64,000 nucleotides of DNA, taken from an uncultured Rubrivirga sp. (lineage in GTDB: Bacteria > Actinomycetota > Actinomycetes > S36-B12). The position numbers and the translations under genes are program-made. Below the pieces are notes generated by a model, which saw only the letters and a list, made by a program, of their open reading frames with translations, was not told where the DNA came from and searched no databases. Numbering within the stretch: the stretch's first letter is position 1; the number at the start of each line of letters is the position of its first letter. Shown in pieces: positions 23,245-47,749 of the stretch. The stretch lies in assembly GCA_964595675.1 (NCBI GenBank), contig CAZQRR010000001.1, positions 3,724 through 67,723 of the forward strand. The letters are read 5' to 3'.

Positions 23245-23400
23245 ATACCCGATCCATGGTCGGATTCGCACCACAACTGAATGCACGCGCTCGACGTCCA
23301 GGGGAAGCCGGTGCAAATCCGGCGCTGTCCCGCAACCGTGAGTTCTCCGAGGTTCACACCTCGATCTGAATAAGTCGGAGCACCTGGCGAGCGCGAGCGG
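23245..23400 (+). promoter_or_regulatory. Cobalamin (AdoCbl) riboswitch aptamer
   Basis: AGGGGAAGCCGGTGCAAATCCGGCGCTGTCCCGCAACCGTGA (23300-23341) matches the conserved core. AGTCGGAGCACCTGG (23373-23387) matches the B12 box. It lies in the 351-nt leader of the 23535 operon. Outer boundaries are approximate. Confidence 0.85.
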
Positions 23401-23534: not shown

Positions 23535-24578
23535 ATGGTCACCCGTAAGTTCACGTCCACGCTGGCGACTATCGCAGCTGCAGCACTCGGGGCTACGCTC
23601 CTAGCAGCACCTGCCCACGCCGCCGACACCGGTCTTTACGGCCAAACCGCACCCGCGTCGGACGCCGTTTACCGACAGTCCCTCGCTATCTTGGGACTGA
23701 CGGCAGTAGGCGTAAAGCCCGCACCAAGCGCCGTGCAGTGGCTGATCGATCAGCAGTGTGCGGACGGCAGTTTCCAGTCCTACCGAGAAGACGTATCCGT
23801 GCCGTGCGCACCCAGTGATCCGCAGGCCTTCAGCGGCCCGGATACGAACTCCACCGCACTTGCAGCAATGGCCCTCGAGGCCGTGGACGATGACCGTGCC
23901 GCCTCCCGTGCCGCCTCCCGTGCGGCCAACGCGCTGATCCGCGGCGCGCAGCGAAGCGGCAACCAAGCCTCCTGGCCGTACAACTTCGGAGGCACGCCCG
24001 ATGCGAGTAGCACCGGGCTCGTCGTGAATGCACTCGATGCAGTAGGGAGCAACTCAGCAACGATCACGGCAGGCCAACGCTGGCTCAGCGCCCGCATCAT
24101 CCCTTGCGGTCGCAAGTACGGAGGCGCTATGCGCAACGATGTCGCCTCCGCAGCTGCCAACAATTTCGGCACAGCACAAGGTCTCCTGGGATTGACCGAG
24201 GCGCTCCCCGTGGAAAGTACGTCAAATCCCGAGGCCAATCCGGCGTGCGCCGGATCCGCGGAGAAGCGGGTAGCGAGCTACCTTGCCCGCACCTTGACCC
24301 GCGATGGGATCCTCACCTACTCCGGTTTCGGCGGCAACGACTACGGCTCGACTTCTGCCGCCGTCGTAGGGCTCGGCGAAGCCCAGCTCGGGCGCCAGGG
24401 AATCAATTCGGCCGTTGCCGCCCTCAAGCGCGACGCCCGAGACTGGATCTCCACCGATGCTGGGGACAGCGTGGGTGCCGCCGGATGGTTGTTGATGGTT
24501 GCCGAGGCTTCGGGCGAGAACCCACGCTCCTTCGGTGGCGTCAACCTCATTCAGACCATCACCGGCAGCATCCGTTGA
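23535..24578 (+). CDS. Secreted prenyltransferase/squalene-oxidase-repeat (alpha/alpha toroid) protein
   Basis: Sec signal peptide (ATLLAAPAHA-AD). Terpene-cyclase-like repeat signatures (QQCADGSFQS, ASWPYNFGG). RBS GAAGGGGA upstream. Confidence 0.75.
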   Translation: MVTRKFTSTLATIAAAALGATLLAAPAHAADTGLYGQTAPASDAVYRQSLAILGLTAVGVKPAPSAVQWLIDQQCADGSFQSYREDVSVPCAPSDPQAFSGPDTNSTALAAMALEAVDDDRAASRAASRAANALIRGAQRSGNQASWPYNFGGTPDASSTGLVVNALDAVGSNSATITAGQRWLSARIIPCGRKYGGAMRNDVASAAANNFGTAQGLLGLTEALPVESTSNPEANPACAGSAEKRVASYLARTLTRDGILTYSGFGGNDYGSTSAAVVGLGEAQLGRQGINSAVAALKRDARDWISTDAGDSVGAAGWLLMVAEASGENPRSFGGVNLIQTITGSIR

Positions 24579-30424: not shown

Positions 30425-30570
30425 GCAGCCTGGCGCGAAACCTGGTCATTTAGGGTTGTGCCGACGCCGAGCCTCTGCGACCCTAGTGGAGCCCTAAGTC
30501 GGACTGATTGGGTCGCCTTCCTCCGAGGGTTCAGGGGAGATCCCCCTTCCCCCTCCTTGACGGGCCTAAT

Positions 30571-30586
30571 CGTGAAGGCTTTCACG
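30571..30586. promoter_or_regulatory. Candidate CRP/FNR-family site (proximal)
   Basis: CGTGA-AGGCTT-TCACG is a perfect inverted repeat with GTGA-N6-TCAC geometry. It ends 45 nt upstream of the whiB ATG. Confidence 0.45.
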
Positions 30587-30630
30587 AGTGCCGGCGACCC
30601 CGGTGCCCACCACCCTTGGAGGGATCACGC

Positions 30631-30885
30631 ATGGACTGGCGCCACGAGGCAGCCTGCCGTGACGAAGACCCGGAGTTGTTCTTCCCGATCGGCAATACCG
30701 GACCTGCCCTCATTCAAATCGAAGAGGCCAAGGCCGTCTGCCGACGCTGCCCGGTGGTCGACGAGTGCCTGCGGTGGGCTCTGGAGACGGGCCAGGACGC
30801 GGGCGTCTGGGGTGGCTTGAGCGAGGACGAGCGTCGAGCCTTGAAGCGCCGCAACGCTCGTCTGCGCGCTCGCACGAACGCCTGA
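30631..30885 (+). CDS. whiB1: WhiB-family [4Fe-4S] transcription factor (WhiB1-like)
   Basis: 84 aa. Four Cys (CRDEDPELFF...CRRCPVVDEC), GVWGG turn and a basic tail. RBS GGAGGG 8 nt upstream. The 125-aa ORF is trimmed to ATG 30631. Confidence 0.92.
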   Translation: MDWRHEAACRDEDPELFFPIGNTGPALIQIEEAKAVCRRCPVVDECLRWALETGQDAGVWGGLSEDERRALKRRNARLRARTNA

Positions 30886-36750: not shown

Positions 36751-38073
36751 GTGTCGTCGGAATCGTGGTGGTCAGCGCCTTACTGCGGGAAACCAGTGGA
36801 TGCGCGGGTACGAGTCCCCGGCTCGAAATCGTTGACCAACCGTGCGCTAATCCTGGCTGCACTGAGCGAGCGTCCCAGCCAAGTAACCCATGCGCTTGCT
36901 TCGCGCGACACCGAACTCATGATCGAAGCACTAGCCAAACTCGGCGTGGGCTTTCGCACGCTGTCCGAATCCGACGCCAGCATCGACCTCGAGATCACAC
37001 CGCACTATCTGAAGACCGCCCCGGACACCACAATCGACGTCGGACTCGCCGGCACTGTCATGAGATTCATTCCTCCACTTGCAGGGCTGAACCACGGCGA
37101 AGTGATGTTCGATGGTGATTCGGCGGCACGCCGCAGGCCCATGGCCACCTTGATCGAAGCCATGCGAGATGTGGGCATCGACGTCGATGATGCTGGGACC
37201 GGCAAGTTGCCCATGCTCGTCCGTGGCCGCGGACACGTGCCCGGGGGTGAGGTGGTACTCGATGCTTCGAGGTCAAGTCAATTCGTCAGCGCCTTGTTGC
37301 TATCGGCAGCGCGGTTCGAGGCTGGGGCCACGATCCATCACGTAGGCCAGCGACTACCGAGTGCGCCGCATATCGAGATGACCATTCGCATGCTGGCGGC
37401 GCACGGGGTGCAGGTACGCGTCGTGGAAGATCCCCCGATCGAAGGATTCGAGCGCTTCACCTGGCACATCGATTCCCAAGAGGTGCGGTCCCATGACTGG
37501 AGCATCGAACCCGACATCTCGAACGCCCTGCCCTTCATCGCAGCCGCCCTGGTCACGGGTGGGCGCGTCACTATCGAGGGGTGGCCGACAGACTCTCTGC
37601 AACCCACTGAGACGGTTCTGGGCATTCTCCGCAGGTTCGGTGCGGAAATCCGTGTCCATGAGGACGCCCTCGAGGTGGAAGGTCCAGATCGAATCGATCC
37701 GGTGGACATCGATCTGTCCGATGTCGGCGAGACGGCACCCACGATTGCGGCGATCAGCTTGTTCGCAGAAGGCACCAGCACGCTCCGCGGGATCGCGCAC
37801 CTACGCGGTCATGAGACCGATCGACTCGCGGCACTGGAAAAGGAGATTTCCAACTTGGGCGGGAAGATCGAGCAAACCGACGATGGCGTGATCATCAATC
37901 CTTCGTCCATGCACGGTGGGCCTTTCCACACGTACCACGACCATCGCATGGCAACTACCGGAGCGATCATCGGACTTCGTGTCCCTGAGGTGTTGGTCGA
38001 GAACGTAGGCACCACCGCCAAGACCCTTCCGAATTTCCCCTTGCTGTGGGCAAGCACCACCCAGGGAAGCTGA
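36751..38073 (+). CDS. aroA: 3-phosphoshikimate 1-carboxyvinyltransferase (EPSP synthase)
   Basis: VPGSKSLTNRALILAAL, full-length 440 aa, GTG start. Confidence 0.93.
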   Translation: MSSESWWSAPYCGKPVDARVRVPGSKSLTNRALILAALSERPSQVTHALASRDTELMIEALAKLGVGFRTLSESDASIDLEITPHYLKTAPDTTIDVGLAGTVMRFIPPLAGLNHGEVMFDGDSAARRRPMATLIEAMRDVGIDVDDAGTGKLPMLVRGRGHVPGGEVVLDASRSSQFVSALLLSAARFEAGATIHHVGQRLPSAPHIEMTIRMLAAHGVQVRVVEDPPIEGFERFTWHIDSQEVRSHDWSIEPDISNALPFIAAALVTGGRVTIEGWPTDSLQPTETVLGILRRFGAEIRVHEDALEVEGPDRIDPVDIDLSDVGETAPTIAAISLFAEGTSTLRGIAHLRGHETDRLAALEKEISNLGGKIEQTDDGVIINPSSMHGGPFHTYHDHRMATTGAIIGLRVPEVLVENVGTTAKTLPNFPLLWASTTQGS

Positions 38074-38090
38074 ATCAACGCGGTGGCGAC

Positions 38091-39086
38091 GTGACCAAGC
38101 ACTCGAAGCTGGATGAGGACGACGTTCGCGTCCGACCCGGACGCAGCAAGAGTCGCCGCCGAACCAAGGACAGACCCGAGTTCGAGGGTGCCAGGCCGGC
38201 AACCGTCGCAACCGTGGACCGCGGACGCTTCACCATCGTGGCCGCGGATGGCAGCGAGCACTTCGCGGTCAAGGCTCGAGAACTCGGGCGCAAGGGCATC
38301 GTGGTTGGTGATCGCGTCGAGGTGATCGGATTATCCGAGGAAACCGGAACCGATCGACTATCCCGCGAGGACTTCGCTCGAATCATCCGCCGGCTCCCGA
38401 GGGAAACCACGTTGCGTCGCTCCGCGGACGACGTGGATCCCATCGAGCGGGTGATCGTGGCGAACGCCGATCAGTTGGCCATCGTCGTGGCAGCAGCAGA
38501 CCCCGATCCTCGCCCAGGCCTCATCGATCGCACCCTCGTGGCAGCCTTCGACGCAGGTATCTCACCAATGCTCCTCATCACCAAGACCGACATAGCCTCT
38601 GCTGCACCCCTCATCGAGTTGTACGGACCGCTGGACGTACCCATTCACGAGATTCACAGCAAACGGGTATCTCCAGGTATCGAGGATGCATTCGCCGATC
38701 ACGTCACGGTGTTGATCGGACATTCCGGCGTGGGCAAGTCAACGCTCGTCAACTCCCTGGTCCCCTCTGCGCAACGATCCACCGGTGGGGTAAACCTCGT
38801 CACCGGAAAAGGCCGCCACACCTCGACCAATGTGATCGCATTGCCGCTCCCGGGAGGCGGCATCATCATCGACACACCAGGGATTCGTTCTTTCGGTCTG
38901 GCCCATATCGAGCCCGATCGAGTCATCCACGCCTTCGCCGACATCGAAGACGCTGCCCAGACATGCCCACGGGGATGCACGCACGACGATCGGTATTGCG
39001 CTTTGGATACCGATCCTTCGATGAACCCGGGACGCCTGGCATCCCTGCGGCGGTTGCTGCGAAGCCGCACTCAAGCCGACGGCTAA
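38091..39086 (+). CDS. rsgA: Ribosome small-subunit-dependent GTPase A
   Basis: Circularly permuted GTPase motifs (ITKTD, GHSGVGKSTLVNSL, GRHTST) and a C-terminal zinc cluster (CPRGCTHDDRYC). Trimmed to GTG 38091 to avoid overlap with aroA. Confidence 0.88.
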   Translation: MTKHSKLDEDDVRVRPGRSKSRRRTKDRPEFEGARPATVATVDRGRFTIVAADGSEHFAVKARELGRKGIVVGDRVEVIGLSEETGTDRLSREDFARIIRRLPRETTLRRSADDVDPIERVIVANADQLAIVVAAADPDPRPGLIDRTLVAAFDAGISPMLLITKTDIASAAPLIELYGPLDVPIHEIHSKRVSPGIEDAFADHVTVLIGHSGVGKSTLVNSLVPSAQRSTGGVNLVTGKGRHTSTNVIALPLPGGGIIIDTPGIRSFGLAHIEPDRVIHAFADIEDAAQTCPRGCTHDDRYCALDTDPSMNPGRLASLRRLLRSRTQADG

Positions 39087-39690: not shown

Positions 39691-40467
39691 GTGGACGACC
39701 TCTCGCTCGCCCGACTTATGGCTGATGCCGCCGACGCGATCTCGCTGGATCGTTTCCAGGCGCATGACCTCGTGGTGGAGACGAAGCCGGACATGACTCC
39801 GGTGAGCGATGCAGATCGTGCGGTGGAGAACGCCATCCGAGCACTCCTGGCCCAGCACCGGCCAGATGATGCGATCCATGGCGAGGAGTACGGGAGCCAA
39901 GACGGACACCGCCAGTGGATCATCGACCCGATCGATGGCACCAAGAGTTTCGTTCGAGGGGTTCCGATCTGGGCGACTCTGATCGCCCTTCGCGAAGGCG
40001 ACACGATCACCACCGGAGTGGTCTCGGCACCCGCGCTGGGACGTCGGTGGTGGGCAGCGCGAAACACCGAAGCGACCTGCACCGCCCCAGGGGACCTCGA
40101 TCCTCGGCCGCCGCTTCGCGTCAGCAAGGTGTCGAGCATCGCCGATGCCTCATTCGGGTTCTCCGATGCAATCGGGTGGTCGACGAAAGGCTTGGATCGT
40201 CTCCTCGAACAGACCTGGCGCCAGCGTGGATACGGTGATTTCTGGTCACACCTAATGGTGGCCGAAGGCGCGGTGGACATCGCAGCCGAGCCAGCGCTGA
40301 AGATCCATGATGTGGCAGCGCTCGTTCCCATCATCGAAGCCGCTGGAGGTCAGATCACGACCTTCACCGGCGACCCGATTCCGTGGAACCATCCAACGGC
40401 CGAGTTCTCGGCACTGAGCACGAACGGACTTCTTCACAATTCGGTCGTAGATCTCCTTCGCCTCTAG
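39691..40467 (+). CDS. hisN: Inositol-monophosphatase-family histidinol-phosphatase
   Basis: IMPase motifs (ETKPDMTPVSDADRAVE, WIIDPIDGTKSF). The N-terminus resembles actinobacterial HisN. GTG start. Confidence 0.7.
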   Translation: MDDLSLARLMADAADAISLDRFQAHDLVVETKPDMTPVSDADRAVENAIRALLAQHRPDDAIHGEEYGSQDGHRQWIIDPIDGTKSFVRGVPIWATLIALREGDTITTGVVSAPALGRRWWAARNTEATCTAPGDLDPRPPLRVSKVSSIADASFGFSDAIGWSTKGLDRLLEQTWRQRGYGDFWSHLMVAEGAVDIAAEPALKIHDVAALVPIIEAAGGQITTFTGDPIPWNHPTAEFSALSTNGLLHNSVVDLLRL

Positions 40468-40547
40468 CCTGCGGCTCTCCTCGGCCCCACGATGGGAATA
40501 CCGAACCACCGATTCGAGACCCATGGGGCACACGCGGGAGGTCGATC

Positions 40548-40982
40548 ATGCAGGTTGCGCAGGTCATATCCGGAAAGGGCGCCGAGGTCTTCTCGATCAG
40601 TCCCGAGGCGACCGTGGGTGAACTCGTCCAAGCATTGAATGAATATCGTGTGGGAGCACTGCTCGTTATCGACAAGGCCAGCATTCTCGCCGGGATCGTC
40701 TCCGAGCGTGATGTGGTGCGTGCGCTAGCGAAAGATTCCGGGGCAGTCGATCATCACGTTCGCACGATCATGACCGCCGATGTGGTGAGCGTGCCACCCA
40801 CGTTCGAGGTGGCTGATCTCATGGGCTTGATGACCGAACGTCGCATCCGGCACGTGCCGGTTATCGATGACCAAGGCGCGCTCGTAGGCCTAGTGTCCAT
40901 CGGTGATGTCGTGAAGGTCCGCATGGATGAACTCGAGACCGAACGAGCAGCACTCGTGGACTACATAACGCACGGGGGTTAG
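40548..40982 (+). CDS. CBS-domain pair protein
   Basis: 144 aa with two CBS repeats (VGALLVID...GIVSERDVV; IRHVPVIDD...GLVSIGDVV). RBS GGGAGG upstream. The ORF is trimmed to ATG 40548. Confidence 0.85.
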   Translation: MQVAQVISGKGAEVFSISPEATVGELVQALNEYRVGALLVIDKASILAGIVSERDVVRALAKDSGAVDHHVRTIMTADVVSVPPTFEVADLMGLMTERRIRHVPVIDDQGALVGLVSIGDVVKVRMDELETERAALVDYITHGG

Positions 40983-41002
40983 TTCCGGTACGTGCACAGT
41001 GG

Positions 41003-42370
41003 CTAGCGCGGCTCCACGATCACCGGCATTCCGCCGTGCGGCCGAATGGTCACCAACGGCTCCCCGACTGGCAGTGACACACCTGGGGGAAACGAGACAC
41101 GGAACCGCCGAGCCAACTCGGCCACGATCATGACCGATTCGACGTAGGAGAAGTCACGACCGATGCACAACCGAGGCCCGGCACCGAAGGGAATGTGCGA
41201 AAAGCGGTCGACGTCCGACAAGAATCGCTCCGGATCGAACTCCTCCGGTCGATCCCACAACCTCGGATGACGGTGCAGCAGCCACGGGCTCATGATGATG
41301 AGGGCTCCAGCGGGAACGTGCACACCGTCGATCTCATCGGGACCCAGGGCAGAACGAGTTACCAGCCAGGCAGGTGGGTACAGACGCAACGTCTCATCGA
41401 TCACTGCCCGGGTGTAGGTCAGCTCTGCATAATCGACGAACTCAATGGGGCGACTCGGGGCGACTGTGTCGGCCTCCGCCGCGATCCGATCCCCCACGTG
41501 CGGATGGTCCGCGATCAGGCCCCACGCCCAGCCCAGGGCACTGGCCACGGTTTCATGACCCGCCACGATGAAGGTGACCAGTTGATCTCTGATCTGGGTA
41601 ATCGACAGTGCGGCACCCGTTTCGTCGCGGACCGACAGCAGCATGCCGAGCAGGTCTTCGGTAGGACTCCCACCTGCATCCTCCCTACGCGCAGCCACCA
41701 TGTCGGCTACTGCTTCGTCCAACCGAGCAACGGACTTCGTCAACACACGATTGCCGGGTGTGGGGATCCAAGCAGGTGGCGTGATCGGCACGCGTGCGCG
41801 TGCCACCACCACGTCCAGCGCATCCAAGGTCGCCGCGGCGATAGCACTCGATCTACCGGTGAGGTCAGTGCTCATCAAGGATGCCGCGACGACTTCCAAG
41901 GCGGCTCCCATCATGAAGGAATCAATGTCGATCACGGTGCCTGGAGACAGGTCGGCCCATTGGCTGGCTACACGCGCACTCGCCTGGCGCACGTGGGAAC
42001 CGATGTTCTCCAGCGCGGTGTGGTGGAACGCAGGTTGGAGGACTCTGCGTTGCTTTTTCCAGGTGTCGCCATCGGAAGTGAGCAGCCCCTCTCCAGTCAC
42101 TAGGGACAGTGCTCGGTATTGGATCGTCGACTTGCCGTAGTTCCGGGCATTGTCGACCAGCACGTGCCTGGTGCCTTCCGGACTGTTCACCAGGTAGCTA
42201 GGAGGCCTGGGAACCGGGAACTGAACCACGTCTCCGTGTGCAAGCCATGCCTGATGGAGGTATTCCAGCGGGTTACGGCGAATAGTCCCGAAGGCCTTCA
42301 ACATGTCCGGGCCCAGAGGGCCAGGAGCGGTCGCCGGAGTACCGAGGAAGCTGGTGGGGCGTTTGCTCAC
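41003..42370 (-). CDS. Cytochrome P450 (AGHET-type I-helix, CYP4/CYP132-like)
   Basis: Heme loop FGAGPRLCIGRDF, EXXR (ETLRLYPP), I-helix VAGHETVA. Trimmed to GTG 42368-42370, which overlaps the upstream TAG by 1 nt. Confidence 0.9.
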   Translation of the reverse strand: MSKRPTSFLGTPATAPGPLGPDMLKAFGTIRRNPLEYLHQAWLAHGDVVQFPVPRPPSYLVNSPEGTRHVLVDNARNYGKSTIQYRALSLVTGEGLLTSDGDTWKKQRRVLQPAFHHTALENIGSHVRQASARVASQWADLSPGTVIDIDSFMMGAALEVVAASLMSTDLTGRSSAIAAATLDALDVVVARARVPITPPAWIPTPGNRVLTKSVARLDEAVADMVAARREDAGGSPTEDLLGMLLSVRDETGAALSITQIRDQLVTFIVAGHETVASALGWAWGLIADHPHVGDRIAAEADTVAPSRPIEFVDYAELTYTRAVIDETLRLYPPAWLVTRSALGPDEIDGVHVPAGALIIMSPWLLHRHPRLWDRPEEFDPERFLSDVDRFSHIPFGAGPRLCIGRDFSYVESVMIVAELARRFRVSFPPGVSLPVGEPLVTIRPHGGMPVIVEPR

Positions 42371-42672
42371 TAACTCATGATCCGTGACTCGTTGACGAAT
42401 AGTCGCACCCGTGACGTCACGTGATCGAGGGAGTCTTGTGCCACGCTCTTGCCAATCTCCGATGCGTAAGCCGCTTCGAAGGCGTCGCGATCGTCGAACC
42501 ACAGCTCGGTGATGCCGTCGATCCCATCTCCTTCGACTACTTCATTGAAGCGAATCTCTCGAACACCGGGAAGCAGTCGGGCCATGGGAGCGTGCTCTTC
42601 CAGCCACCACTGCGCGAACTCCCCGTGACTCATGTCGGATCGACGCGTCAACAAGATCATCGCCTTGAACAT
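42370..42672 (-). CDS. EthD-domain protein
   Basis: 100 aa. MFKAMILLTRRSDMSHGEFAQWWLEEHAP... is typical of the EthD family. RBS AAAGGAAA upstream. Confidence 0.7.
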   Translation of the reverse strand: MFKAMILLTRRSDMSHGEFAQWWLEEHAPMARLLPGVREIRFNEVVEGDGIDGITELWFDDRDAFEAAYASEIGKSVAQDSLDHVTSRVRLFVNESRIMS

Positions 42673-42689
42673 ATGTTTCCTTTCGCAAT

Positions 42690-43247
42690 CTACGAGGGCT
42701 TACGGACGCGTGCCCCGGGTCGCCCCCCACACGACAGCGCAAGGGCGATGACGATTTCATCGGCATGCGGAGCATCGGGGACACTGACGTCCACCGAATC
42801 CATGTCGTCGAAGACCCACCTGTCGTCCTTATTGCCTATCGGCATGGTGATCTGAGCGCCCGGCCCGGCGACCTTCTTGGTTCCAGGGATGATGTCGGCC
42901 CCACCACCGATGGCATATCGAACCGGCGCCCCGAAACGGGGATGCAGGATCGCTGCGGTGTGTTCTCGGTCCCCGGCGACCCCCACGATCGCACCCTTGC
43001 CGTAACCGCGCACCGAATCGGCACCCAGTCCCACGGCTGCGAGCACTTGAAGGCAACGTTCCACCAGGAATGCCGCTGCATGCGAGCCCAGTTCCTCGAG
43101 TTCACTCAATTCCTCAACACGCCCTCGACCCGCGAGCGGGTTGTGGACCACCACGGCGCACGTGGCGACGATGGTCGGTGGGGTGATCTCCGCTCCGGCC
43201 TCCCGCAGGGTTTCGTGGAGACTTGAATGGACAGCCCTGACCTTCAC
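42690..43247 (-). CDS. Amino-acid-synthesis (AA_synth, PF06684-like) family protein
   Basis: GKGAIVGVAGDREHTAAILHPRFGAPVR...IPGTKKVAGPG...DAPHADEIVIALA matches my memory of this family. Trimmed to GTG 43245-43247, giving a GTGA overlap with the fbiC stop. Confidence 0.75.
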   Translation of the reverse strand: MKVRAVHSSLHETLREAGAEITPPTIVATCAVVVHNPLAGRGRVEELSELEELGSHAAAFLVERCLQVLAAVGLGADSVRGYGKGAIVGVAGDREHTAAILHPRFGAPVRYAIGGGADIIPGTKKVAGPGAQITMPIGNKDDRWVFDDMDSVDVSVPDAPHADEIVIALALSCGGRPGARVRKPS

Positions 43248-45619
43248 CCTGCTACTCCATTCATGTCGATGAGTGGTTGATACACCGTGGTCCGCTGCTC
43301 GAGAATGCGACCGATGGGCTCCAGCTCGCGGGCGAGCTCCGCGGGATCCATGCCCTGACCATGGGTGGCTCCAGCGGCGCGGGAGATGTTCTCGTCCATG
43401 AGCGTCCCACCGACGTCGTTGACTCCGCCCTGCAAGAGTTGCTTCACTCCAGGAATACCGAGCTTCACCCATGAGGCCTGAACGTTGTCGATGAGCCCTC
43501 GATAAGCGATGCGGCCGATCGCATGCATCAAGACGACCTCCCGCCAAGTGGGGCCACGGCGGGCTTTGCGCTTCAAATAGACCGGGGAAGCCATGTGTAC
43601 GAACGGCAGAGGTATGAACTCGGTGAACCCACCGGTACGTCGTTGCAGGTCGCGCGTGGCGAGGATGTGGGCAATCCAGTGTTCGGGTTGCTCGACACTC
43701 CCGAACATGATCGTGACGTTCGATCGCAGTCCCAAGCGGTGCGCCGTTTCGTGCACCATCAACCACTCGTCAGTGGTCACCTTGTCCGGACACAAGATGG
43801 CGCGAATATCGTCGTGCAGGATCTCAGCGGCAGTCCCAGGCAGCGACGCTAATCCTGCGTCCTTCATCCGCTGCAGGTAGGAGTCCAACGGCTCACCCAG
43901 TCGCCGCGAACCTTCGAGAATCTCGAGTGCGGTGAAGCCATGCACATGCATCGCGGGAACGGCCTTTTTGACCACCTCGGTCACGCGGACGTAGTAGTCG
44001 CCGTCGAAGTCCGGATGTATCCCGCCCTGCAAGCACACTTCGGTGGCTCCGTGGGATGCGGCTTCCACGACCCGTGCGGCGATCTCCTCGTCGTCCAGGA
44101 GATAGGGCTTCCCTCGGAGGTTCAAGGACAACGGGCCCTTCGAGAAGCCACAGAAGGTGCATTTGTATGTACAGACGTTGGTGTAGTTGATATTCCGGTT
44201 CCGCACATATGTCACCGCAGAGCCGTTGACCTGCGCGCGTATCTCGTCCGCCACTGCGGCGATGGCTGCTACTTCCCGTCCGCGCGCCGCGAACAAGGTG
44301 GCGAGTTCGGGAGCGTCGACCCGTTGACCCGCACGAACACCGGCGAGCACCTCGCCAACGGCACCGGAGATGTCACTCGAACGCGGAATGAGGGCAACAG
44401 GCAACCGTTCGGCACCCGCGTACCAAGCCGTGGAGCGCCGTCCGATCTGGATTACCTCGGCACCAGTACCGACATTCGCAGCGTCCTGGTACTTCTCAGG
44501 GAAAACGGCACCCGGATCATCTCGCGCCAGACCTTCGGCATCGCTTCGGTCCAGGACCGCGAAGTGCAAGCCTTCATCGATCCAGTCATGAGCGCTGAGC
44601 ACGAATTCCGGGTAGACCGTCAGACGCGGAGCCAGTTCCCTGCCGCTGGCCTCAGCGGCGAACCGGAGCGCCTCCAAGGACGGCCACGGCTTCTCGGGAT
44701 TGACGTGGTCGATGGTGACCGGCGAGACGCCACCGAAGTCATCGATACCGGCCTCGATGATCGCCGTGATGTCGTCGACCAGATTGGGAGGTGCCTGCAC
44801 GTGGACGCTCGAGGGCAAGACCGCGCGCGCAAGCGCGATGGCATCGACGAGGTCATCAATCGAGCACGCGGGCTCATCCCGCATGCCGGTGCCCGCCTTG
44901 GGCACGAAGTTCTGGACGATCACCTCCTGGATATGCCCGTACTTCGCGTGGCTGGCAGCTATCGCTTCCAACGCGACCACGCGGTCGGATCTTGACTCCC
45001 CGAAGCCGACCAGGATGCCTGTGGTGAACGGGATGGCCAACTCGCCCGCAAAGTCGAGTGTGGCCAGACGACGAGCCGGATCCTTGTCCGGGGCACCGCG
45101 GTGCGCCGGAAGGTCGGGATTCAATGACTCGATCATCATTCCCTGACTCGGGGCAACGGTCCGCAGACGGGCTAGGTCGTCTCGCCCGAGAGCGCCGGCG
45201 TTGGCGTGTGGCAGCAATCCCGAGGTCTCGAGAACCCGCCTGCATGCAGCGACCAGGTAGTCGATCGTGGACTCGTAGCCGTTCGCATCGAGCCAATCGC
45301 GTGCCTGCGGATACCGATCCTCGGGGTACTCCCCCAGCGTGAAGAGCGCTTCATGGCAGCCGGCTTGCGCACCCTGGCTTGCGATTCGCTCCACGTCATC
45401 CAAGGACAGGTAGGGCGACGGTAGGTGGTGCGGGGCTTGGGCGAAGGTGCAGTAACCGCAGCGATCCCGGCACAACTGCGTGAGAGGGATGAAGACTTTC
45501 GGCGAGTAGGTGATTCGACTCGTGATCTCGCTGGACGGCTTCGTTGAACCAGGATCGATCGACCCAGGACCGATGGACAACGCTGCCTCCGTCTCGCAAC
45601 TCGACCCGATAACCGACAA
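43244..45619 (-). CDS. fbiC: FO synthase (7,8-didemethyl-8-hydroxy-5-deazariboflavin synthase), fused CofG/CofH
   Basis: Two radical-SAM clusters (CRDRCGYC in the N-terminal half, CTYKCTFC in the C-terminal half), 791 aa. The TTG start at 45617-45619 is uncertain. Confidence 0.92.
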   Translation of the reverse strand: MSVIGSSCETEAALSIGPGSIDPGSTKPSSEITSRITYSPKVFIPLTQLCRDRCGYCTFAQAPHHLPSPYLSLDDVERIASQGAQAGCHEALFTLGEYPEDRYPQARDWLDANGYESTIDYLVAACRRVLETSGLLPHANAGALGRDDLARLRTVAPSQGMMIESLNPDLPAHRGAPDKDPARRLATLDFAGELAIPFTTGILVGFGESRSDRVVALEAIAASHAKYGHIQEVIVQNFVPKAGTGMRDEPACSIDDLVDAIALARAVLPSSVHVQAPPNLVDDITAIIEAGIDDFGGVSPVTIDHVNPEKPWPSLEALRFAAEASGRELAPRLTVYPEFVLSAHDWIDEGLHFAVLDRSDAEGLARDDPGAVFPEKYQDAANVGTGAEVIQIGRRSTAWYAGAERLPVALIPRSSDISGAVGEVLAGVRAGQRVDAPELATLFAARGREVAAIAAVADEIRAQVNGSAVTYVRNRNINYTNVCTYKCTFCGFSKGPLSLNLRGKPYLLDDEEIAARVVEAASHGATEVCLQGGIHPDFDGDYYVRVTEVVKKAVPAMHVHGFTALEILEGSRRLGEPLDSYLQRMKDAGLASLPGTAAEILHDDIRAILCPDKVTTDEWLMVHETAHRLGLRSNVTIMFGSVEQPEHWIAHILATRDLQRRTGGFTEFIPLPFVHMASPVYLKRKARRGPTWREVVLMHAIGRIAYRGLIDNVQASWVKLGIPGVKQLLQGGVNDVGGTLMDENISRAAGATHGQGMDPAELARELEPIGRILEQRTTVYQPLIDMNGVAG

Positions 45620-45665
45620 CCCCCGCCTCGTATCGTGGCATAGCCACCAAAGCGGGGGTTGTCGG
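45613..45665. promoter_or_regulatory. 14-bp perfect inverted repeat (hairpin) at the fbiC 5' end
   Basis: CCGACAACCCCCGC (45613-45626) pairs with GCGGGGGTTGTCGG (45652-45665); the loop is 25 nt. The 3' arm on the minus-strand mRNA contains the putative TTG start. Confidence 0.6.
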
Positions 45666-45710
45666 TTGTGAATTCAGTTATGTGATGAACGCAATGCCGA
45701 AAGAGGGCCC

Positions 45711-47204
45711 CTAGCGGGTGGACACGCCCTTCTTGACTCCACCCGACTGGTACTCGCGGACCGCGGCCCGCGAAGCCAGCCAGGTCCAACCCGGCTCGCG
45801 CGCAGGTGCTTCCTCGGAGACGATCTCGAGTCCGGAGTGAGCGGCGTTCGGGAAGTCGTCGTCGACGTGGACGATGTTGTCGAATCCCGCGTTCTGCAGC
45901 ACCGAGGCAACGGCTGCCGCCCGGTATCCCGATCCGCAGTAGACGAAGATGTCCTCGTCGCGGGGCAACTCGCCCATACGATCGAGCACCTCATAGAAGG
46001 GCATGAAGGTCGCACCTTTCACGTGCCCCGATTCCCATTCCAGGATCTGGCGGGTGTCGATGACCACCGACCTAGGGTTCGCCTTCCACTCCTTGGCCAT
46101 CTCCTCGAAGTCCACTCGACGCATGAACGCAGGCGTCTCACCCTCGGACATCCACGAGTCCGGACCTCCGACGGCCTGACCGGCCGGTCGATCGATGCCG
46201 ATCCGGACCAACTCACGCTGAGCCGCTTCCACCTGCTCGGTGGTCGCCCCAACCAGCGTGATCGGCGTGCCCCACGGCACCATCCAGCCGAGGTAGTTGA
46301 TGAAGGCCCCATTGAGGTCGAAATTGACCGCGCCGGGCACGTGACCTGAGGCGAAGACCTCGCGGGAGCGCAGGTCCACGACCCACTCGCCCGCTTCGAC
46401 GCGGCGTCGCAGTTCGGCAGGGTCGACCGGTGCGGGCAGCGACAGGTCGATCTGTGCCGGTCCGGCAGCGTTGGCCGGACCCATGTGGGCGTAGTACGCG
46501 GGAAAGACGTCGAGCCCGGCGATCAGCATTTCGACGAAGTCCTCCTCCGCCTGGGTGAGGGCGGGGTTGATCGCCTTCTCCTGACCCAAAGACGTCTGGA
46601 CGCCTGCAGTCTGGATCGACGAGCAGAACGATCCGAAACCATGCGTGGGGTAAATCTGCGTGTCAGCCGGCAGTACATCGACGAGGTGATGGGCGGAATG
46701 CCACTGATCGTGGGCTTGCTTGACCGTCAAGTCGGGTGCGACGAGATCGGGCCGACCCACGGTTCCGTACAGGAGTGAACCACCGGTGAATACCGCGCCC
46801 GGATGGTTGTCACGGCTGACCGCGAAGGAGATGTGGTGCGGCGTGTGGCCAGGGGTGTGCACGATGCGCACATCGAGGTCACCCACTCGGAAGCTGTCAC
46901 CCTCGCTCATTGCCACGACGTTCGCCTCGCCCAGGTACGACAGTTCCACGTCAGCAGGAACCACGTAGGTAGCGCCATGCTTCTTCGCGAACTGATAGCC
47001 ACCATTGACGTAGTCGTTGTGGATGTGGGTCTCACCTACGTGAGTCACGGTGAGGCCGTGCTCGGCGATGAGCTTCTCGACGCGGTCGGTATCGCGCTGG
47101 GGGTCGATGACGATGGCGTTTACACCATCGTGGGCGATGTAGCCCCGGTCGCCGAGACCCGGGGTGTCGATGACGATGACGTGGGGGGCGCTTGTTGCGG
47201 TCAT
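45711..47204 (-). CDS. MBL-fold persulfide-dioxygenase-like domain fused to two rhodanese domains (CstB-like)
   Basis: Metal motifs THIHNDYV and HTPGHTPHH. C-terminal rhodanese active-site loop YCGSGYRAA. 497 aa. RBS AGGAGTAGGAG. Confidence 0.85.
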   Translation of the reverse strand: MTATSAPHVIVIDTPGLGDRGYIAHDGVNAIVIDPQRDTDRVEKLIAEHGLTVTHVGETHIHNDYVNGGYQFAKKHGATYVVPADVELSYLGEANVVAMSEGDSFRVGDLDVRIVHTPGHTPHHISFAVSRDNHPGAVFTGGSLLYGTVGRPDLVAPDLTVKQAHDQWHSAHHLVDVLPADTQIYPTHGFGSFCSSIQTAGVQTSLGQEKAINPALTQAEEDFVEMLIAGLDVFPAYYAHMGPANAAGPAQIDLSLPAPVDPAELRRRVEAGEWVVDLRSREVFASGHVPGAVNFDLNGAFINYLGWMVPWGTPITLVGATTEQVEAAQRELVRIGIDRPAGQAVGGPDSWMSEGETPAFMRRVDFEEMAKEWKANPRSVVIDTRQILEWESGHVKGATFMPFYEVLDRMGELPRDEDIFVYCGSGYRAAAVASVLQNAGFDNIVHVDDDFPNAAHSGLEIVSEEAPAREPGWTWLASRAAVREYQSGGVKKGVSTR

Positions 47205-47392
47205 GACTTTGCTCCTACTCCTGATTCGCGGACTCTTGATTGCTGCGGCATGCCCGCTGCGCGCCAGGCTGCCAGGCCTCTACCGAAAGCGTGCTGACCA
47301 TCGTGGGCTCTGCTCCCTATCGCGGTGTGGTCGTGTCGATTTGTCACTACGTCGATGCACGGGCCCTCGTCGGGCCGCACCCGCTAAGGCTA

Positions 47393-47408
47393 ATACCCCC
47401 CGGGGTAT
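47393..47408. promoter_or_regulatory. CsoR/CstR-type GC-core palindrome (candidate operator)
   Basis: ATACCCC-CC-GGGGTAT: perfect 7-bp arms with AT-rich flanks (TAATACCCCCCGGGGTATAT). Confidence 0.45.
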
Positions 47409-47502
47409 ATGTCCAGTCCTACATGGAGTTTGACCGGACATCCGTCCGGCGGGCGGCGAGGAGCTCAAGTATGTGAATTCACGCACAATCACCCCTTTTT
47501 GT

Positions 47503-47531
47503 TTGGTAAACCAACAAATATGCGACATAAT
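47503..47531 (+). promoter_or_regulatory. Candidate sigma-70-type promoter
   Basis: TTGGTA, a 17-nt spacer, then CATAAT. It lies in a strikingly AT-rich patch about 57 nt upstream of the 47588 ATG. Confidence 0.4.
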
Positions 47532-47587
47532 CGTTATGTGCACGGGAGACCCCCGAGCCACCAACACAGAAAAGGGAGTGACCCTCC

Positions 47588-47749
47588 ATGAAGCAACTCG
47601 GAAGCATCTTCGGCTCCGTATTTGGACGCATCGATTCCGAGACCGCCGCGCGTAAGGAGATCTACCGCGAGTGGGATCGCCAGCGTCGTAATGCCATGAG
47701 CCCGACGGACCTGGCGGAGATCGACGCGATCTTCTCCCGCGCTCTCTAG
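47588..47749 (+). CDS. Unlisted small ORF (53 aa), hypothetical
   Basis: My own translation: MKQLGSIFGSVFGRIDSETAARKEIYREWDRQRRNAMSPTDLAEIDAIFSRAL. RBS GGGAG 9 nt upstream; third-position GC is high, as in neighbouring genes. It falls below the track's length cutoff. Confidence 0.5.
   Translation: MKQLGSIFGSVFGRIDSETAARKEIYREWDRQRRNAMSPTDLAEIDAIFSRAL

What the first reader, a model, noticed from the sequence alone, without database searches (positions are those of the whole stretch)
41003..45619. FO synthase (fbiC) translationally coupled to an AA_synth-family protein, an EthD protein and a CYP4-like P450
Seen: four minus-strand genes have essentially no intergenic space. The fbiC stop and the AA_synth start overlap as GTGA (43244-43247). 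A 17-nt gap with an RBS precedes EthD. The EthD stop and P450 start overlap as TAGTG at 42370. The unit is closed by a convergent CBS gene. No ferredoxin or ferredoxin-reductase gene is adjacent. Established knowledge: FbiC makes the deazaflavin FO from tyrosine and a riboflavin precursor and is usually a stand-alone gene. EthD is required for activity of the P450 EthB in Rhodococcus by an unknown mechanism. The AA_synth (PF06684) family has no defined function. Inference: there are two options. The three downstream genes may tailor a tyrosine- or FO-derived metabolite. Alternatively, this P450 may draw electrons from a deazaflavin-dependent route, with EthD and AA_synth as accessory factors. 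Either would be new biology.
Basis: partly seen in the sequence, partly recalled or inferred. Interest (0 to 1): 0.7.

Follow-up and report, generated by a model that had tools for sequence, protein, structure and literature searches.

The report
Conserved fbiC–PF06684–EthD–P450 operon, modular
Four tightly packed genes (a deazaflavin FO synthase, two small proteins of unknown function and a cytochrome P450) form a compact operon conserved across many uncultured planktonic Actinobacteria, but comparison of about 170 related loci shows it is built from three independently occurring pieces, so a shared pathway or a deazaflavin-powered P450 is possible but not supported.

Summary
On the minus strand fbiC, a PF06684 gene, an EthD gene and a P450 follow each other with a GTGA overlap, a 17-nt gap and a TAGTG overlap, closed by a convergent CBS gene. 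No ferredoxin or reductase was found in the 64-kb window. The linkage is not unique. Anchoring on PF06684, 38 of 80 species-level genomes carry fbiC–PF06684–EthD–P450. Eleven of them have a SulP transporter gene between EthD and the P450. But the unit is modular. PF06684–EthD is a free-standing pair in about 30 genomes (Actinobacteria and Chloroflexota). Anchoring on the P450, 19 loci have fbiC directly followed by the P450 with no PF06684/EthD, and 14 (13 in that scan plus L094) have the P450 alone at the same syntenic site. So PF06684–EthD looks like an insert into an older fbiC–P450 junction, and EthD's constant partner is PF06684, not the P450. Tight spacing is common in this genome (13 of 30 other same-strand junctions are 20 nt or less). 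Best reading: a co-transcribed operon of separable modules in a strongly syntenic region. The only link that stays plausible is fbiC–P450. An F420-driven P450 with EthD/PF06684 as accessories is not supported. A conserved hairpin leader upstream of fbiC was found in passing.

The parts
45610..45668 (-). Conserved stem-loop in the 130-nt spacer between the MBL-rhodanese gene and fbiC. It is a perfect 16-bp outer stem within a longer predicted hairpin, and the loop carries TATGCCACGATACGAG. It is a candidate 5' leader or terminator marking the upstream boundary of the unit.
   Evidence: Sequence read. RNA fold energy is -65.2 kcal/mol, z = -5.4. The same hairpin with compensatory stem changes occurs upstream of fbiC in relatives. 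On alignment A2, 93% of cells are paired and 4 of 12 pairs change on both sides. Covariance model R1 hits only this position, on the sense strand, at 44-75 bits in 13 sequences (the window and 12 loci; one more, L023, scores 26.6 bits) within 1.35 Mb. Rfam gives no family match.
43244..45580 (-). fbiC: fused CofG+CofH radical-SAM FO (7,8-didemethyl-8-hydroxy-5-deazariboflavin) synthase. The probable start is TTG at 45580; the mechanical ORF starts at 45619.
   Evidence: NCBIfam and Pfam hits. Both CxxxCxxC motifs (CRDRCGYC and CTYKCTFC) are visible in the translation. Relatives are called at 765-779 aa.
42690..43247 (-). PF06684 (AA_synth/DUF1185) protein, 185 aa. Its GTG start overlaps the fbiC stop (GTGA).
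   Evidence: Pfam 177 bits. PDB 2qtp at E = 5e-48 and 3byq at 1e-21, both deposited as uncharacterised. Seventy-five invariant columns among 21 homologues that include copies from loci without fbiC, P450 or EthD.
42370..42672 (-). EthD-family protein, 100 aa, with no cysteine. It lies 17 nt after the PF06684 stop and has its own ribosome-binding site.
   Evidence: PF07110 and TIGR02118 hits. Translation. PDB 2ftr at E = 1.6e-5. It directly follows PF06684 in 75 of 80 genomes.
41003..42370 (-). Cytochrome P450, 455 aa. Its GTG start overlaps the EthD stop (TAGTG). It has the canonical heme-Cys loop FGAGPRLCIG, the ExxR motif (ETLR) and the I-helix motif AGHET.
   Evidence: Pfam 251 bits. Motifs are visible in the translation and are invariant in alignment A4. 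Best solved relatives are 7wzl, CYP170A1 and CYP97A3. A 100% identical protein, P0121, exists in the public collection.
40548..40982 (+). Convergent CBS-pair gene that closes the unit. Its stop lies 20 nt from the P450 stop. It is context and not part of the operon.
   Evidence: Pfam CBS hit. Relatives are called at 143-154 aa. It is conserved downstream of the P450 in most related loci.
45711..47204 (-). Upstream same-strand MBL-fold + rhodanese gene, separated from fbiC by the hairpin spacer. It is present only in a subset of related loci. It is a neighbour and probably a separate unit.
   Evidence: Pfam and NCBIfam hits. Presence and absence across loci.

Best explanation
The four genes form a compact, very probably co-transcribed operon at a strongly syntenic chromosomal site of uncultured planktonic Actinobacteria (MAGs mostly labelled Nanopelagicales). 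The site reads ExoIII ... [MBL-rhodanese] - fbiC - [PF06684-EthD] - [SulP] - P450 - CBS(-) - InosP(-) - DUF2231 - rsgA - aroA.

The operon is a mosaic of three separable modules.
(1) FbiC makes FO from tyrosine and the riboflavin precursor. This is shown by family membership. The end use is inferred to be most likely a photolyase antenna, because this order is reported not to make F420.
(2) PF06684 and EthD form an autonomous, very highly conserved two-protein unit. It was inserted into an older fbiC-P450 junction in the sub-lineage that includes this window. Its substrate is unknown. By analogy with TgnF and HcdD, I infer that it assists an oxidoreductive step on a small metabolite.
(3) The P450 is an ordinary O2-activating monooxygenase of the CYP170/CYP97-like group. 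It is anchored to the downstream synteny and is presumably served by unlinked redox partners.

The overlapping stops and starts reflect the general gene packing of these genomes and shared expression. They do not reflect an obligatory four-enzyme pathway.
For: Junctions and gene families.

PF06684-anchored survey of 80 species-representative genomes:
- 38 loci have fbiC + PF06684 + EthD + P450, and 11 of these carry a SulP insert.
- 22 loci (plus 8 cut by contig ends) have PF06684-EthD only.
- 5 loci have PF06684 alone.
- PF06684-EthD-only loci have heterogeneous neighbours: BBE oxidase, PIN, thiolase, FMO, TauE, MFS, a dimethylglycine-dehydrogenase-like gene, a histidine kinase.

P450-anchored survey of 80 metagenome contigs at 51-76% identity:
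- 21 loci are fbiC-PF06684-EthD-(SulP)-P450.
- 19 loci have fbiC directly followed by the P450 (under 130 nt between alignments, so no room for an undetected gene).
- 13 loci have the P450 with at least 2.7 kb upstream and no fbiC, PF06684 or EthD. L094 adds one more.
- All types keep CBS/InosP/DUF2231/RsgA/EPSPS downstream.
- The upstream genes in the P450-alone loci differ: GDSL lipase, a trehalase fusion, AAA-GNAT, malic enzyme.

Other points:
- PF06684 copies from every context share 75 invariant columns.
- Tight spacing is common in the window, 13 of 30 junctions, including the functionally unrelated aroA/rsgA pair.
- No internal promoter-like or terminator-like sites exceed shuffle expectation.
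Against: - Among PF06684-anchored loci that are not cut, fbiC and the P450 are always both present or both absent (38 versus 0).
- 40 of 53 informative P450-anchored loci have fbiC upstream.
- The arrangement persists across GC 0.54-0.72 and down to 52% P450 identity. The EthD-stop/P450-start overlap is kept in distant relatives. Such persistence could reflect selection for a shared function.
- Most of these loci descend from one ancestral arrangement, so the counts are not independent events and cannot separate selection from inheritance.
- Co-transcription was not measured.
- The photolyase use of FO and the absence of F420 in this particular organism were not tested here. They rest on PMC7771536 and PMC8498797.
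Confidence: 0.5

Rival explanations
1. fbiC and the P450 are functionally linked, with PF06684-EthD as a later and optional addition. Either the P450 acts on FO, an FO-pathway intermediate or a tyrosine-derived by-product, or it depends on FO in some way.
For: - fbiC lies upstream of the orthologous P450 on the same strand in 40 of 53 informative loci. In 19 of these it is directly adjacent, with under 130 nt between alignments.
- The pairing is kept across GC 0.54-0.72 and down to 52% P450 identity.
- Inserts (PF06684-EthD, SulP) preserve tight spacing and orientation, as if read-through from fbiC into the P450 has to be kept.
- No dedicated redox partner lies nearby.
Against: - 13 loci plus L094 keep the P450 at the same syntenic site without fbiC.
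- The non-co-transcribed neighbours CBS and InosP are conserved even more strongly, so synteny alone can explain the adjacency.
- The P450's nearest characterised relatives oxidise terpenoids or carotenoids, not flavin-like compounds.
- No P450-modified deazaflavin is known to me.
Confidence: 0.2
2. EthD, with PF06684, is an effector or electron-transfer accessory of this P450, possibly fed by a deazaflavin (F420/FO) route instead of a ferredoxin.
For: - In the Rhodococcus eth system, EthD is essential for the P450 EthB. EthA+EthB+EthD was active in vitro without the ferredoxin EthC, which the authors read as EthD acting as a ferredoxin (PMC7934444).
- Here the EthD stop overlaps the P450 start, and this is kept in relatives without the SulP insert.
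- No ferredoxin was found in the window.
Against: - EthD's constant neighbour is PF06684 (75 of 80), and about 30 of those loci have no P450 nearby.
- 39 of 70 determinable P450-orthologue loci have no EthD upstream.
- SulP separates EthD from the P450 in 11 of the 38 complete PF06684-anchored loci, and in others.
- This EthD has no cysteine, so it cannot carry an Fe-S cluster.
- It matches the EthD model only moderately (43.8 bits).
- No ethA/ethC/ethR-type genes are present.
- Reduced deazaflavins are obligate hydride (two-electron) carriers in the dark (established knowledge). They are ill suited to the two single-electron steps of a P450.
- The order is reported not to make F420 (PMC7771536).
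Confidence: 0.07
3. PF06684-EthD serves FbiC rather than the P450. For example, a protein with the chorismate-mutase/RidA-like fold could dispose of reactive by-products of the CofH/CofG reactions (2-iminoacetate, imine intermediates), or could stabilise or deliver FO.
For: - The PF06684 start overlaps the fbiC stop (GTGA) in the window and its closer relatives.
- Family members TgnF and HcdD are described as accessory proteins that stimulate an adjacent oxidoreductase step (PMC7913881).
- No untruncated locus has PF06684-EthD-P450 without fbiC.
Against: - About 30 genomes carry PF06684-EthD, and 5 carry PF06684 alone, far from any fbiC (at least 10 kb) in varied contexts.
- 19 loci have fbiC-P450 with no PF06684-EthD.
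- The RidA-like activity is my speculation from fold class only.
Confidence: 0.08

Closest known systems
ethRABCD cluster of Rhodococcus/Mycobacterium (P450 EthB with EthD)
   Same: An EthD-family protein of about 100 aa is encoded next to a P450 in one transcription direction. In that system EthD is required for P450 activity (PMC7934444).
   Different: - No ferredoxin reductase (EthA), ferredoxin (EthC) or AraC regulator (EthR) is present here.
- Here EthD precedes the P450, and its constant partner is PF06684.
- The P450 is CYP170/CYP97-like, not an EthB orthologue. This was not compared directly.
- Many orthologous P450s have no EthD, and many EthD copies have no P450.
FbiC of mycobacteria, and CofG + CofH of archaea and cyanobacteria (FO synthase)
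   Same: It is a fused CofG-CofH protein. Both equivalog-domain models score above their cut-offs, and both radical-SAM cysteine motifs are present.
   Different: - It is shorter at the N-terminus (model positions 69-837 of 849) and falls just below the full-length cut-off.
- It is embedded in a multigene operon with a structured leader.
- No cofC/cofD/cofE was seen within the Pfam-annotated flanks.
PF06684/DUF1185 proteins BB2672 (3byq), SPO0826 (2qtp), TgnF and HcdD
   Same: Clear family membership: 2qtp at E = 5e-48. Single-domain protein of about 185 aa. The family has a chorismate-mutase-like fold and forms hexamers (PMC2954203). TgnF and HcdD lie in operons with oxidoreductases (PMC7913881).
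   Different: - This is a distinct, extremely conserved subfamily: 64-95% identity across Actinobacteria and Chloroflexota, with motifs REH[TS]AA[VI]LH and FDDMD.
- It is almost always followed by an EthD gene.
- It is not next to branched-chain amino-acid transporters.
CYP170A1 (albaflavenone monooxygenase), PtlI, CYP97A3/LUT5 and CYP175A1
   Same: These are the best-scoring characterised relatives. All canonical P450 motifs are present.
   Different: Scores lie far below the equivalog cut-offs (259 versus 700, and 239 versus 800). No terpene synthase or carotenoid gene is nearby in the window. The substrate is unknown.
In vitro light-driven P450 catalysis mediated by deazaflavins
   Same: A deazaflavin and a P450 without a dedicated reductase appear together. 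Photoreduced deazaflavins can deliver electrons to P450s in vitro (Zilly et al. 2009, listed as reference 16 in PMC7311442).
   Different: That is an artificial system with sacrificial donors. No natural example is known to me, and nothing here tests it.

Membership tests
FO synthase FbiC (CofG+CofH fusion) | The CofG and CofH domain models each score above their curated cut-off | tested here: met
   TIGR03550 scores 458.9 (cut-off 213.35). TIGR03551 scores 486.5 (cut-off 374.1). Full-length NF006687 scores 987.3, below its 1018 cut-off, matching model positions 69-837 of 849.
FO synthase FbiC (CofG+CofH fusion) | Two radical-SAM CxxxCxxC cluster motifs | tested here: met
   CRDRCGYC in the N-terminal half and CTYKCTFC in the C-terminal half (translation). 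Two Radical_SAM stretches were found.
FO synthase FbiC (CofG+CofH fusion) | Produces FO in vivo, and that FO is used for F420 or for a photolyase | not testable with these tools
   No whole-genome access to look for cofC/D/E or for a deazaflavin photolyase. PMC7771536 says Nanopelagicales do not make F420.
PF06684 (AA_synth / DUF1185) | Pfam model above gathering score, and homology to solved family members | tested here: met
   177.4 bits against a cut-off of 27. 2qtp at E = 5.3e-48 and 3byq at 1.3e-21.
PF06684 (AA_synth / DUF1185) | Role in amino-acid synthesis, as the family name suggests | tested here: not met
   No amino-acid biosynthesis or branched-chain transporter genes are consistently adjacent. 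Neighbours are fbiC, EthD, the P450 or unrelated genes. The name rests on genome context elsewhere (PMC2954203).
EthD family (PF07110 / TIGR02118) | Family models above their cut-offs | tested here: met
   PF07110 scores 43.8 (cut-off 22). TIGR02118 scores 48.4 (cut-off 30.5).
Eth-type P450 system (EthA reductase, EthB P450, EthC ferredoxin, EthD, EthR) | EthD encoded together with a ferredoxin reductase, a ferredoxin and an AraC regulator around the P450 | tested here: not met
   None of these genes is in the window or in the Pfam-annotated flanks of relatives.
Eth-type P450 system | EthD and the P450 co-occur consistently | tested here: not met
   EthD occurs without a P450 in about 30 of 80 PF06684-anchored loci. 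The P450 occurs without an upstream EthD in 39 of 70 determinable P450-anchored loci.
Cytochrome P450 (PF00067) | Heme-thiolate loop FxxGxRxCxG, ExxR motif and I-helix acid-alcohol pair | tested here: met
   FGAGPRLCIG, ETLR and AGHET are in the translation. All are invariant in 18 orthologues. Pfam scores 251 bits.
   CYP4B1 matches at E = 1.7e-38, ranking behind 7wzl (5e-70), CYP170A1 (3.5e-60), CYP97A3 (5.6e-52), CYP175A1, CYP46A1 and CYP102-type proteins. Identity to CYP4 was not computed.
Single co-transcribed operon | Same strand, short or overlapping junctions, no internal terminator, and a transcript spanning all genes | tested here: inconclusive
   The junctions are -4, 17 and -1 nt. 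No internal promoter-like or terminator-like sites exceed shuffle expectation. No transcript data are available.

The most novel reading that the evidence does not exclude
In sunlit bacterioplankton that make FO but (reportedly) not F420, the conserved fbiC-P450 pairing could mean that FO itself serves this partner-less P450. FO could act as a photoreductant, a natural counterpart of the in vitro deazaflavin-mediated light-driven P450 reaction, or as its substrate or effector. PF06684-EthD would be an add-on that handles a reactive intermediate. Separately, the conserved hairpin leader upstream of fbiC could be a new cis-regulatory RNA that senses a product of this operon.
Probability: 0.07. 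Interest if true: 0.85.

Novelty: new member of a known kind. Interest (0 to 1): 0.4.

Why it matters
These MAG lineages are mostly labelled Nanopelagicales, described as the most abundant bacterioplankton order in freshwater lakes (PMC12817590). What FO, a P450 and the PF06684-EthD pair do in them is unknown. The survey gives three usable results.

(1) PF06684-EthD is a discrete and extremely conserved two-gene module shared between Actinobacteria and Chloroflexota. This is a clean target for finding the function of two families that have none.

(2) The link worth testing is fbiC-P450, not EthD-P450.

(3) fbiC in this lineage carries a conserved structured leader.

If FO turned out to feed or be modified by a P450, that would be new deazaflavin biology. 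If not, the locus is a useful warning that overlapping stop and start codons in compact genomes do not imply a shared pathway.

Tried and rejected
- Rfam, whole window at gathering thresholds. It found only a tRNA and an AdoCbl-II riboswitch elsewhere. Permissive Rfam on the fbiC leader gave only sub-threshold hairpin look-alikes (ohsC at 39.6 bits against a cut-off of 50, and miRNA models). I rejected these.
- Promoter and terminator consensus scan of 40300-47600. Counts were at or below shuffle expectation, so the scan is uninformative.
- RNAalifold on the whole fbiC upstream spacer. Only the main hairpin is supported. A second upstream block (GCGTTCAACAC) is conserved in sequence but gave no consensus structure. 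I could not fit it to a sigma-70 or ECF promoter by eye.
- Literature searches. No paper links fbiC with EthD, PF06684 or a P450, and no paper mentions PDB entry 7wzl. The trigonelline (TgnF) paper could not be retrieved.
- The idea that the small conserved ORF near fbiC is a ferredoxin. I rejected it because the protein has no cysteine.
- The idea that the P450 is a carotenoid hydroxylase for a rhodopsin antenna. It rests only on similarity to CYP97A3 and CYP175A1. No carotenoid or rhodopsin genes are in the window, and the literature search gave nothing. I kept it as a remote possibility only.
- A recurring sulfur-anion theme (MBL-rhodanese upstream, a SulP insert, TauE next to PF06684-EthD in Chloroflexota). 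I noted it, but these are broad families in different lineages, so I did not pursue it.
- My crude ORF clustering of loci mis-called genes in low-GC loci and displaced PF06684 by an antisense ORF. Counts therefore rest on tblastn.
- I could not test whether genomes with PF06684-EthD only, or with the P450 only, carry fbiC or cofC/D/E elsewhere.

Full report
**What is in the sequence**

Four minus-strand ORFs fill 41003-45619. HMM searches identify them as follows.
- A fused CofG+CofH FO synthase. TIGR03550 scores 458.9 bits and TIGR03551 scores 486.5 bits, both above their cut-offs. The full-length model NF006687 scores 987 bits, just under 1018, because the N-terminus is shorter.
- A PF06684 (AA_synth/DUF1185) protein, 177 bits.
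- An EthD-family protein: PF07110 at 43.8 bits and TIGR02118 at 48.4 bits.
- A cytochrome P450, 251 bits.

Both radical-SAM CxxxCxxC motifs of FbiC are visible in the translation. So are the heme-thiolate loop, the ExxR motif and the AGHET I-helix motif of the P450.

- GTGA overlap between fbiC and PF06684.
- A 17-nt gap with GAAAGGAAA before the EthD ATG.
- TAGTG overlap between EthD and the P450.
- A convergent CBS gene ending 20 nt from the P450 stop.

Pfam scans of about 50 window ORFs and a cysteine-motif scan found no ferredoxin, no ferredoxin reductase, no F420-dependent enzyme and no photolyase. The window is ordinary core actinobacterial chromosome (WhiB, gatAB, ligA, ilvD, aroA, rsgA, an ECF sigma factor, UPF0182), with about 62% GC.

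I make two corrections.
- The real fbiC start is most likely TTG at 45580, behind a GGAGG site. This matches the 778-aa call in the closest relative.
- The P450's best solved relatives are 7wzl, CYP170A1 and CYP97A3. CYP4B1 ranks only eleventh.

**Is the packing unusual?**

It is not very unusual. With the same mechanical gene list, 13 of the other 30 same-strand junctions in the window are 20 nt or less, and 9 overlap. These include functionally unrelated neighbours such as aroA and rsgA (starts are longest-ORF estimates, so overlaps may be somewhat overstated). Three tight junctions in a row are therefore weak evidence of a shared function. A consensus scan found no internal promoter-like or terminator-like sites above shuffle expectation. 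Co-transcription is likely but unproven.

**Is the linkage conserved? PF06684 as anchor**

A homologue search returned hundreds of PF06684 proteins at 72-95% identity, nearly all from metagenomes. A scan of one genome per species with their alignment returned 80 loci. I scored these by tblastn with the window's proteins.
- 38 loci carry fbiC-PF06684-EthD-P450 on one strand. Seven more are the same arrangement cut by a contig end.
- In 11 of the 38, a 1.7-kb gene sits between EthD and the P450. It encodes a SulP-family transporter (Sulfate_transp + STAS).
- 22 loci (plus 8 partly cut) have only PF06684-EthD.
- 5 loci (Chloroflexota) have PF06684 alone.
- The fbiC-linked loci span GC 0.56-0.71, with FbiC identity 69-93% and P450 identity 56-93%.

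All fbiC-linked loci also share the non-co-transcribed neighbours InosP, DUF2231, rsgA and aroA downstream, and often ExoIII and GMC oxidoreductase upstream. They are therefore orthologous copies of one ancestral arrangement, not independent events.

EthD directly follows PF06684 in 75 of 80 loci. Where the pair stands alone, it is a bicistron flanked by divergent or convergent genes of many kinds: BBE-type FAD oxidase, PIN, thiolase, FMO, TauE, MFS, a dimethylglycine-dehydrogenase-like gene and a histidine kinase. PF06684 copies from every context, including those with no EthD, fbiC or P450 nearby, share 75 invariant columns out of 185. This argues for one function independent of the neighbours.

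**Is the linkage conserved? The P450 as anchor**

Homologues of the P450 at 58-100% identity are again environmental. One look-up, L094, showed the orthologous P450 in front of CBS-InosP-DUF2231-RsgA-EPSPS with a malic-enzyme gene upstream and no fbiC, PF06684 or EthD.

A metagenome scan with an alignment of 18 orthologues gave 80 contigs at 51-76% identity. Scoring them gave three classes.
- 21 loci with fbiC-PF06684-EthD-(SulP)-P450.
- 19 loci in which fbiC is followed directly by the P450. Fewer than 130 nt separate the two alignments, so an undetected gene cannot fit.
- 13 loci with at least 2.7 kb of upstream sequence and none of the three genes. The P450 there is preceded by a GDSL lipase, a trehalase fusion or an AAA-GNAT protein.

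All classes keep the same downstream synteny. Overall, EthD lies upstream of the P450 in 31 of 70 determinable loci, and fbiC lies upstream in 40 of 53.

**What this means**

The locus is modular. The P450 is anchored to the downstream block. fbiC is usually, but not always, in front of it. PF06684-EthD, and in another sub-lineage SulP as well, sit between them as inserts that preserve orientation and tight spacing.

No untruncated locus shows PF06684-EthD-P450 without fbiC. This fits insertion into a pre-existing fbiC-P450 junction.

A neighbour-joining tree of PF06684 (low resolution for 185 residues) shows two things.
- It interleaves fbiC-linked copies with stand-alone ones.
- It nests the Chloroflexota copies among high-GC actinobacterial ones.

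This fits repeated relocation and probably inter-phylum transfer of the pair.

EthD's partner is PF06684. The only association that stays reasonably general is fbiC-P450.

**How it most likely works**

Shown:
- FbiC has everything expected of an FO synthase.
- The P450 has the canonical O2-activating machinery.
- This EthD has no cysteine.

From the literature:
- Two PF06684 members, TgnF and HcdD, lie in catabolic operons. TgnF is reported to stimulate an adjacent dehydrogenase step (PMC7913881).
- EthD of Rhodococcus is essential for the P450 EthB, and was reported to replace the ferredoxin in vitro (PMC7934444).
- FO on its own serves as the antenna of deazaflavin photolyases (PMC8498797).
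- Nanopelagicales are stated not to synthesise F420 (PMC7771536).

Inferred. My best reading (confidence about 0.5) is a co-transcribed operon of three functionally separable modules.
- FO synthesis, probably for photolyase.
- An autonomous PF06684-EthD pair that assists some small-molecule redox or isomerisation step.
- A conventional P450 served by unlinked redox partners.

Rivals:
- A genuine fbiC-P450 functional link (about 0.2).
- PF06684-EthD serving FbiC, for example by removing reactive imine by-products (about 0.08; my speculation from fold class).

The last rival is weakened by the co-occurrence data. It is also weakened by the absence of any Fe-S ligand in EthD, and by the hydride-only dark chemistry of deazaflavins (established knowledge). 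The reported lack of F420 in the order points the same way.

A remote but interesting variant is that FO acts photochemically on the P450. Deazaflavins do mediate light-driven P450 hydroxylation in vitro (Zilly et al. 2009, listed as reference 16 in PMC7311442).

**Found in passing: a structured leader**

The 130-nt spacer between the upstream MBL-rhodanese gene and fbiC contains a hairpin whose outer stem is a perfect 16-bp inverted repeat (45610-45668, minus strand). Its loop carries TATGCCACGATACGAG.
- The fold energy is -65 kcal/mol, z = -5.4.
- The same hairpin, with different stem sequences but the same loop motif, precedes fbiC in the closer relatives.
- On a 10-sequence alignment, 93% of cells pair, 4 of 12 pairs show changes on both sides, and slid controls drop to 34-58%.
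- A covariance model finds it only there, at 44-75 bits on the sense strand against about 20-36 bits antisense, in 13 sequences (the window and 12 loci) out of 1.35 Mb searched.
- Rfam has no match.

It may be a U-tract-less terminator of the upstream gene or a regulatory leader of the fbiC operon. It occurs only in the sub-clade that has the MBL-rhodanese gene upstream, so the two cannot be separated here.

**Limits**

- Most counted loci descend from a single ancestral arrangement, so the frequencies describe retention and are not independent evidence of selection.
- MAG organism labels are unreliable. The closest relative is labelled Rubrivirga and others Bifidobacterium breve, yet the closest relative's locus (L008) matches this actinobacterial window gene for gene at 90-96% identity (the window encodes WhiB).
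- I could not inspect whole genomes. Whether stand-alone PF06684-EthD or P450 genomes have fbiC elsewhere, and whether this organism has cofC/D/E or a deazaflavin photolyase, is untested.
- No expression data were available.

**Verdict**

The locus is a new member of known kinds of genes in a lineage-specific, modular operon. It is of moderate interest (0.4), chiefly for the fbiC-P450 pairing, for the unexplained and highly conserved PF06684-EthD module, and for the fbiC leader.

Noticed in passing
window 45610-45668 (-), with an upstream conserved block around 45675-45695: A conserved stem-loop with loop motif TATGCCACGATACGAG lies immediately upstream of fbiC. The stem shows compensatory changes in relatives. 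It is found only at this position in 1.35 Mb of related sequence, and Rfam has no match. A second conserved sequence block (GCGTTCA[ACT]CAC) lies about 35 nt further upstream. It is a candidate regulatory leader, or a terminator of the upstream gene.
   Followed up: partly
window 47588-47749 (+): A conserved 53-aa ORF (MKQLGSIFGS...EIYREWDRQRR...LAEIDAIFSRAL) with no Pfam hit and no cysteine. It recurs on the opposite strand just upstream of fbiC or MBL-rhodanese in many related loci, and also in loci that have lost fbiC (L146, L147, L152).
   Followed up: partly
window 23288-23393 (+): An AdoCbl-II (cobalamin) riboswitch at 44.6 bits (gathering score 36.5). It lies upstream of ORF 23535-24578, a 347-aa protein with no Pfam match.
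   Followed up: no
L018-L061 (Chloroflexota/Limnocylindria MAGs) compared with window 42690-43247: PF06684 is 73-77% identical between Actinobacteria and Chloroflexota. That is as high as, or higher than, between actinobacterial sub-lineages. The Chloroflexota copies nest among high-GC actinobacterial ones in a neighbour-joining tree. This suggests inter-phylum transfer of the PF06684-EthD pair, or extreme constraint.
   Followed up: partly
window 45711-47204 (-); L088 10906-12576; L047 9108-9869: Three different sulfur-anion-related genes sit next to the PF06684-EthD pair in different lineages. An MBL-fold/rhodanese fusion lies upstream of fbiC. A SulP/STAS transporter lies between EthD and the P450. 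A TauE/SafE exporter lies just upstream of PF06684 in several Chloroflexota. MBL-rhodanese and SulP were never seen together in one locus. This may be coincidence.
   Followed up: no
L035 6703-9183 and L056 2266-4088: A dimethylglycine/sarcosine-dehydrogenase-like gene (DAO + GCV_T) lies downstream of PF06684-EthD on the same strand, in one Chloroflexota locus and one low-GC actinobacterial locus.
   Followed up: no
L008 and other loci: NCBI organism labels of several MAGs look wrong (for example 'uncultured Rubrivirga sp.' and 'Bifidobacterium breve'). The Rubrivirga-labelled closest relative (L008) shares all seven tested genes with this window at 90-96% identity, and the window itself is actinobacterial (WhiB at 30508-30885, core gene order).
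   Followed up: no
window 36751-39086 (+): aroA (EPSP synthase) and rsgA overlap by about 28 nt in the mechanical ORF calls, and they also overlap in relatives' gene calls. This is an example of tight packing of functionally unrelated genes in this genome.
   Followed up: yes
L067 and L086: Two separate contigs of one MAG (Loclat_bin-02354) each carry a PF06684-EthD pair with the same neighbours. This is either a duplication or strain heterogeneity in the bin.
   Followed up: no
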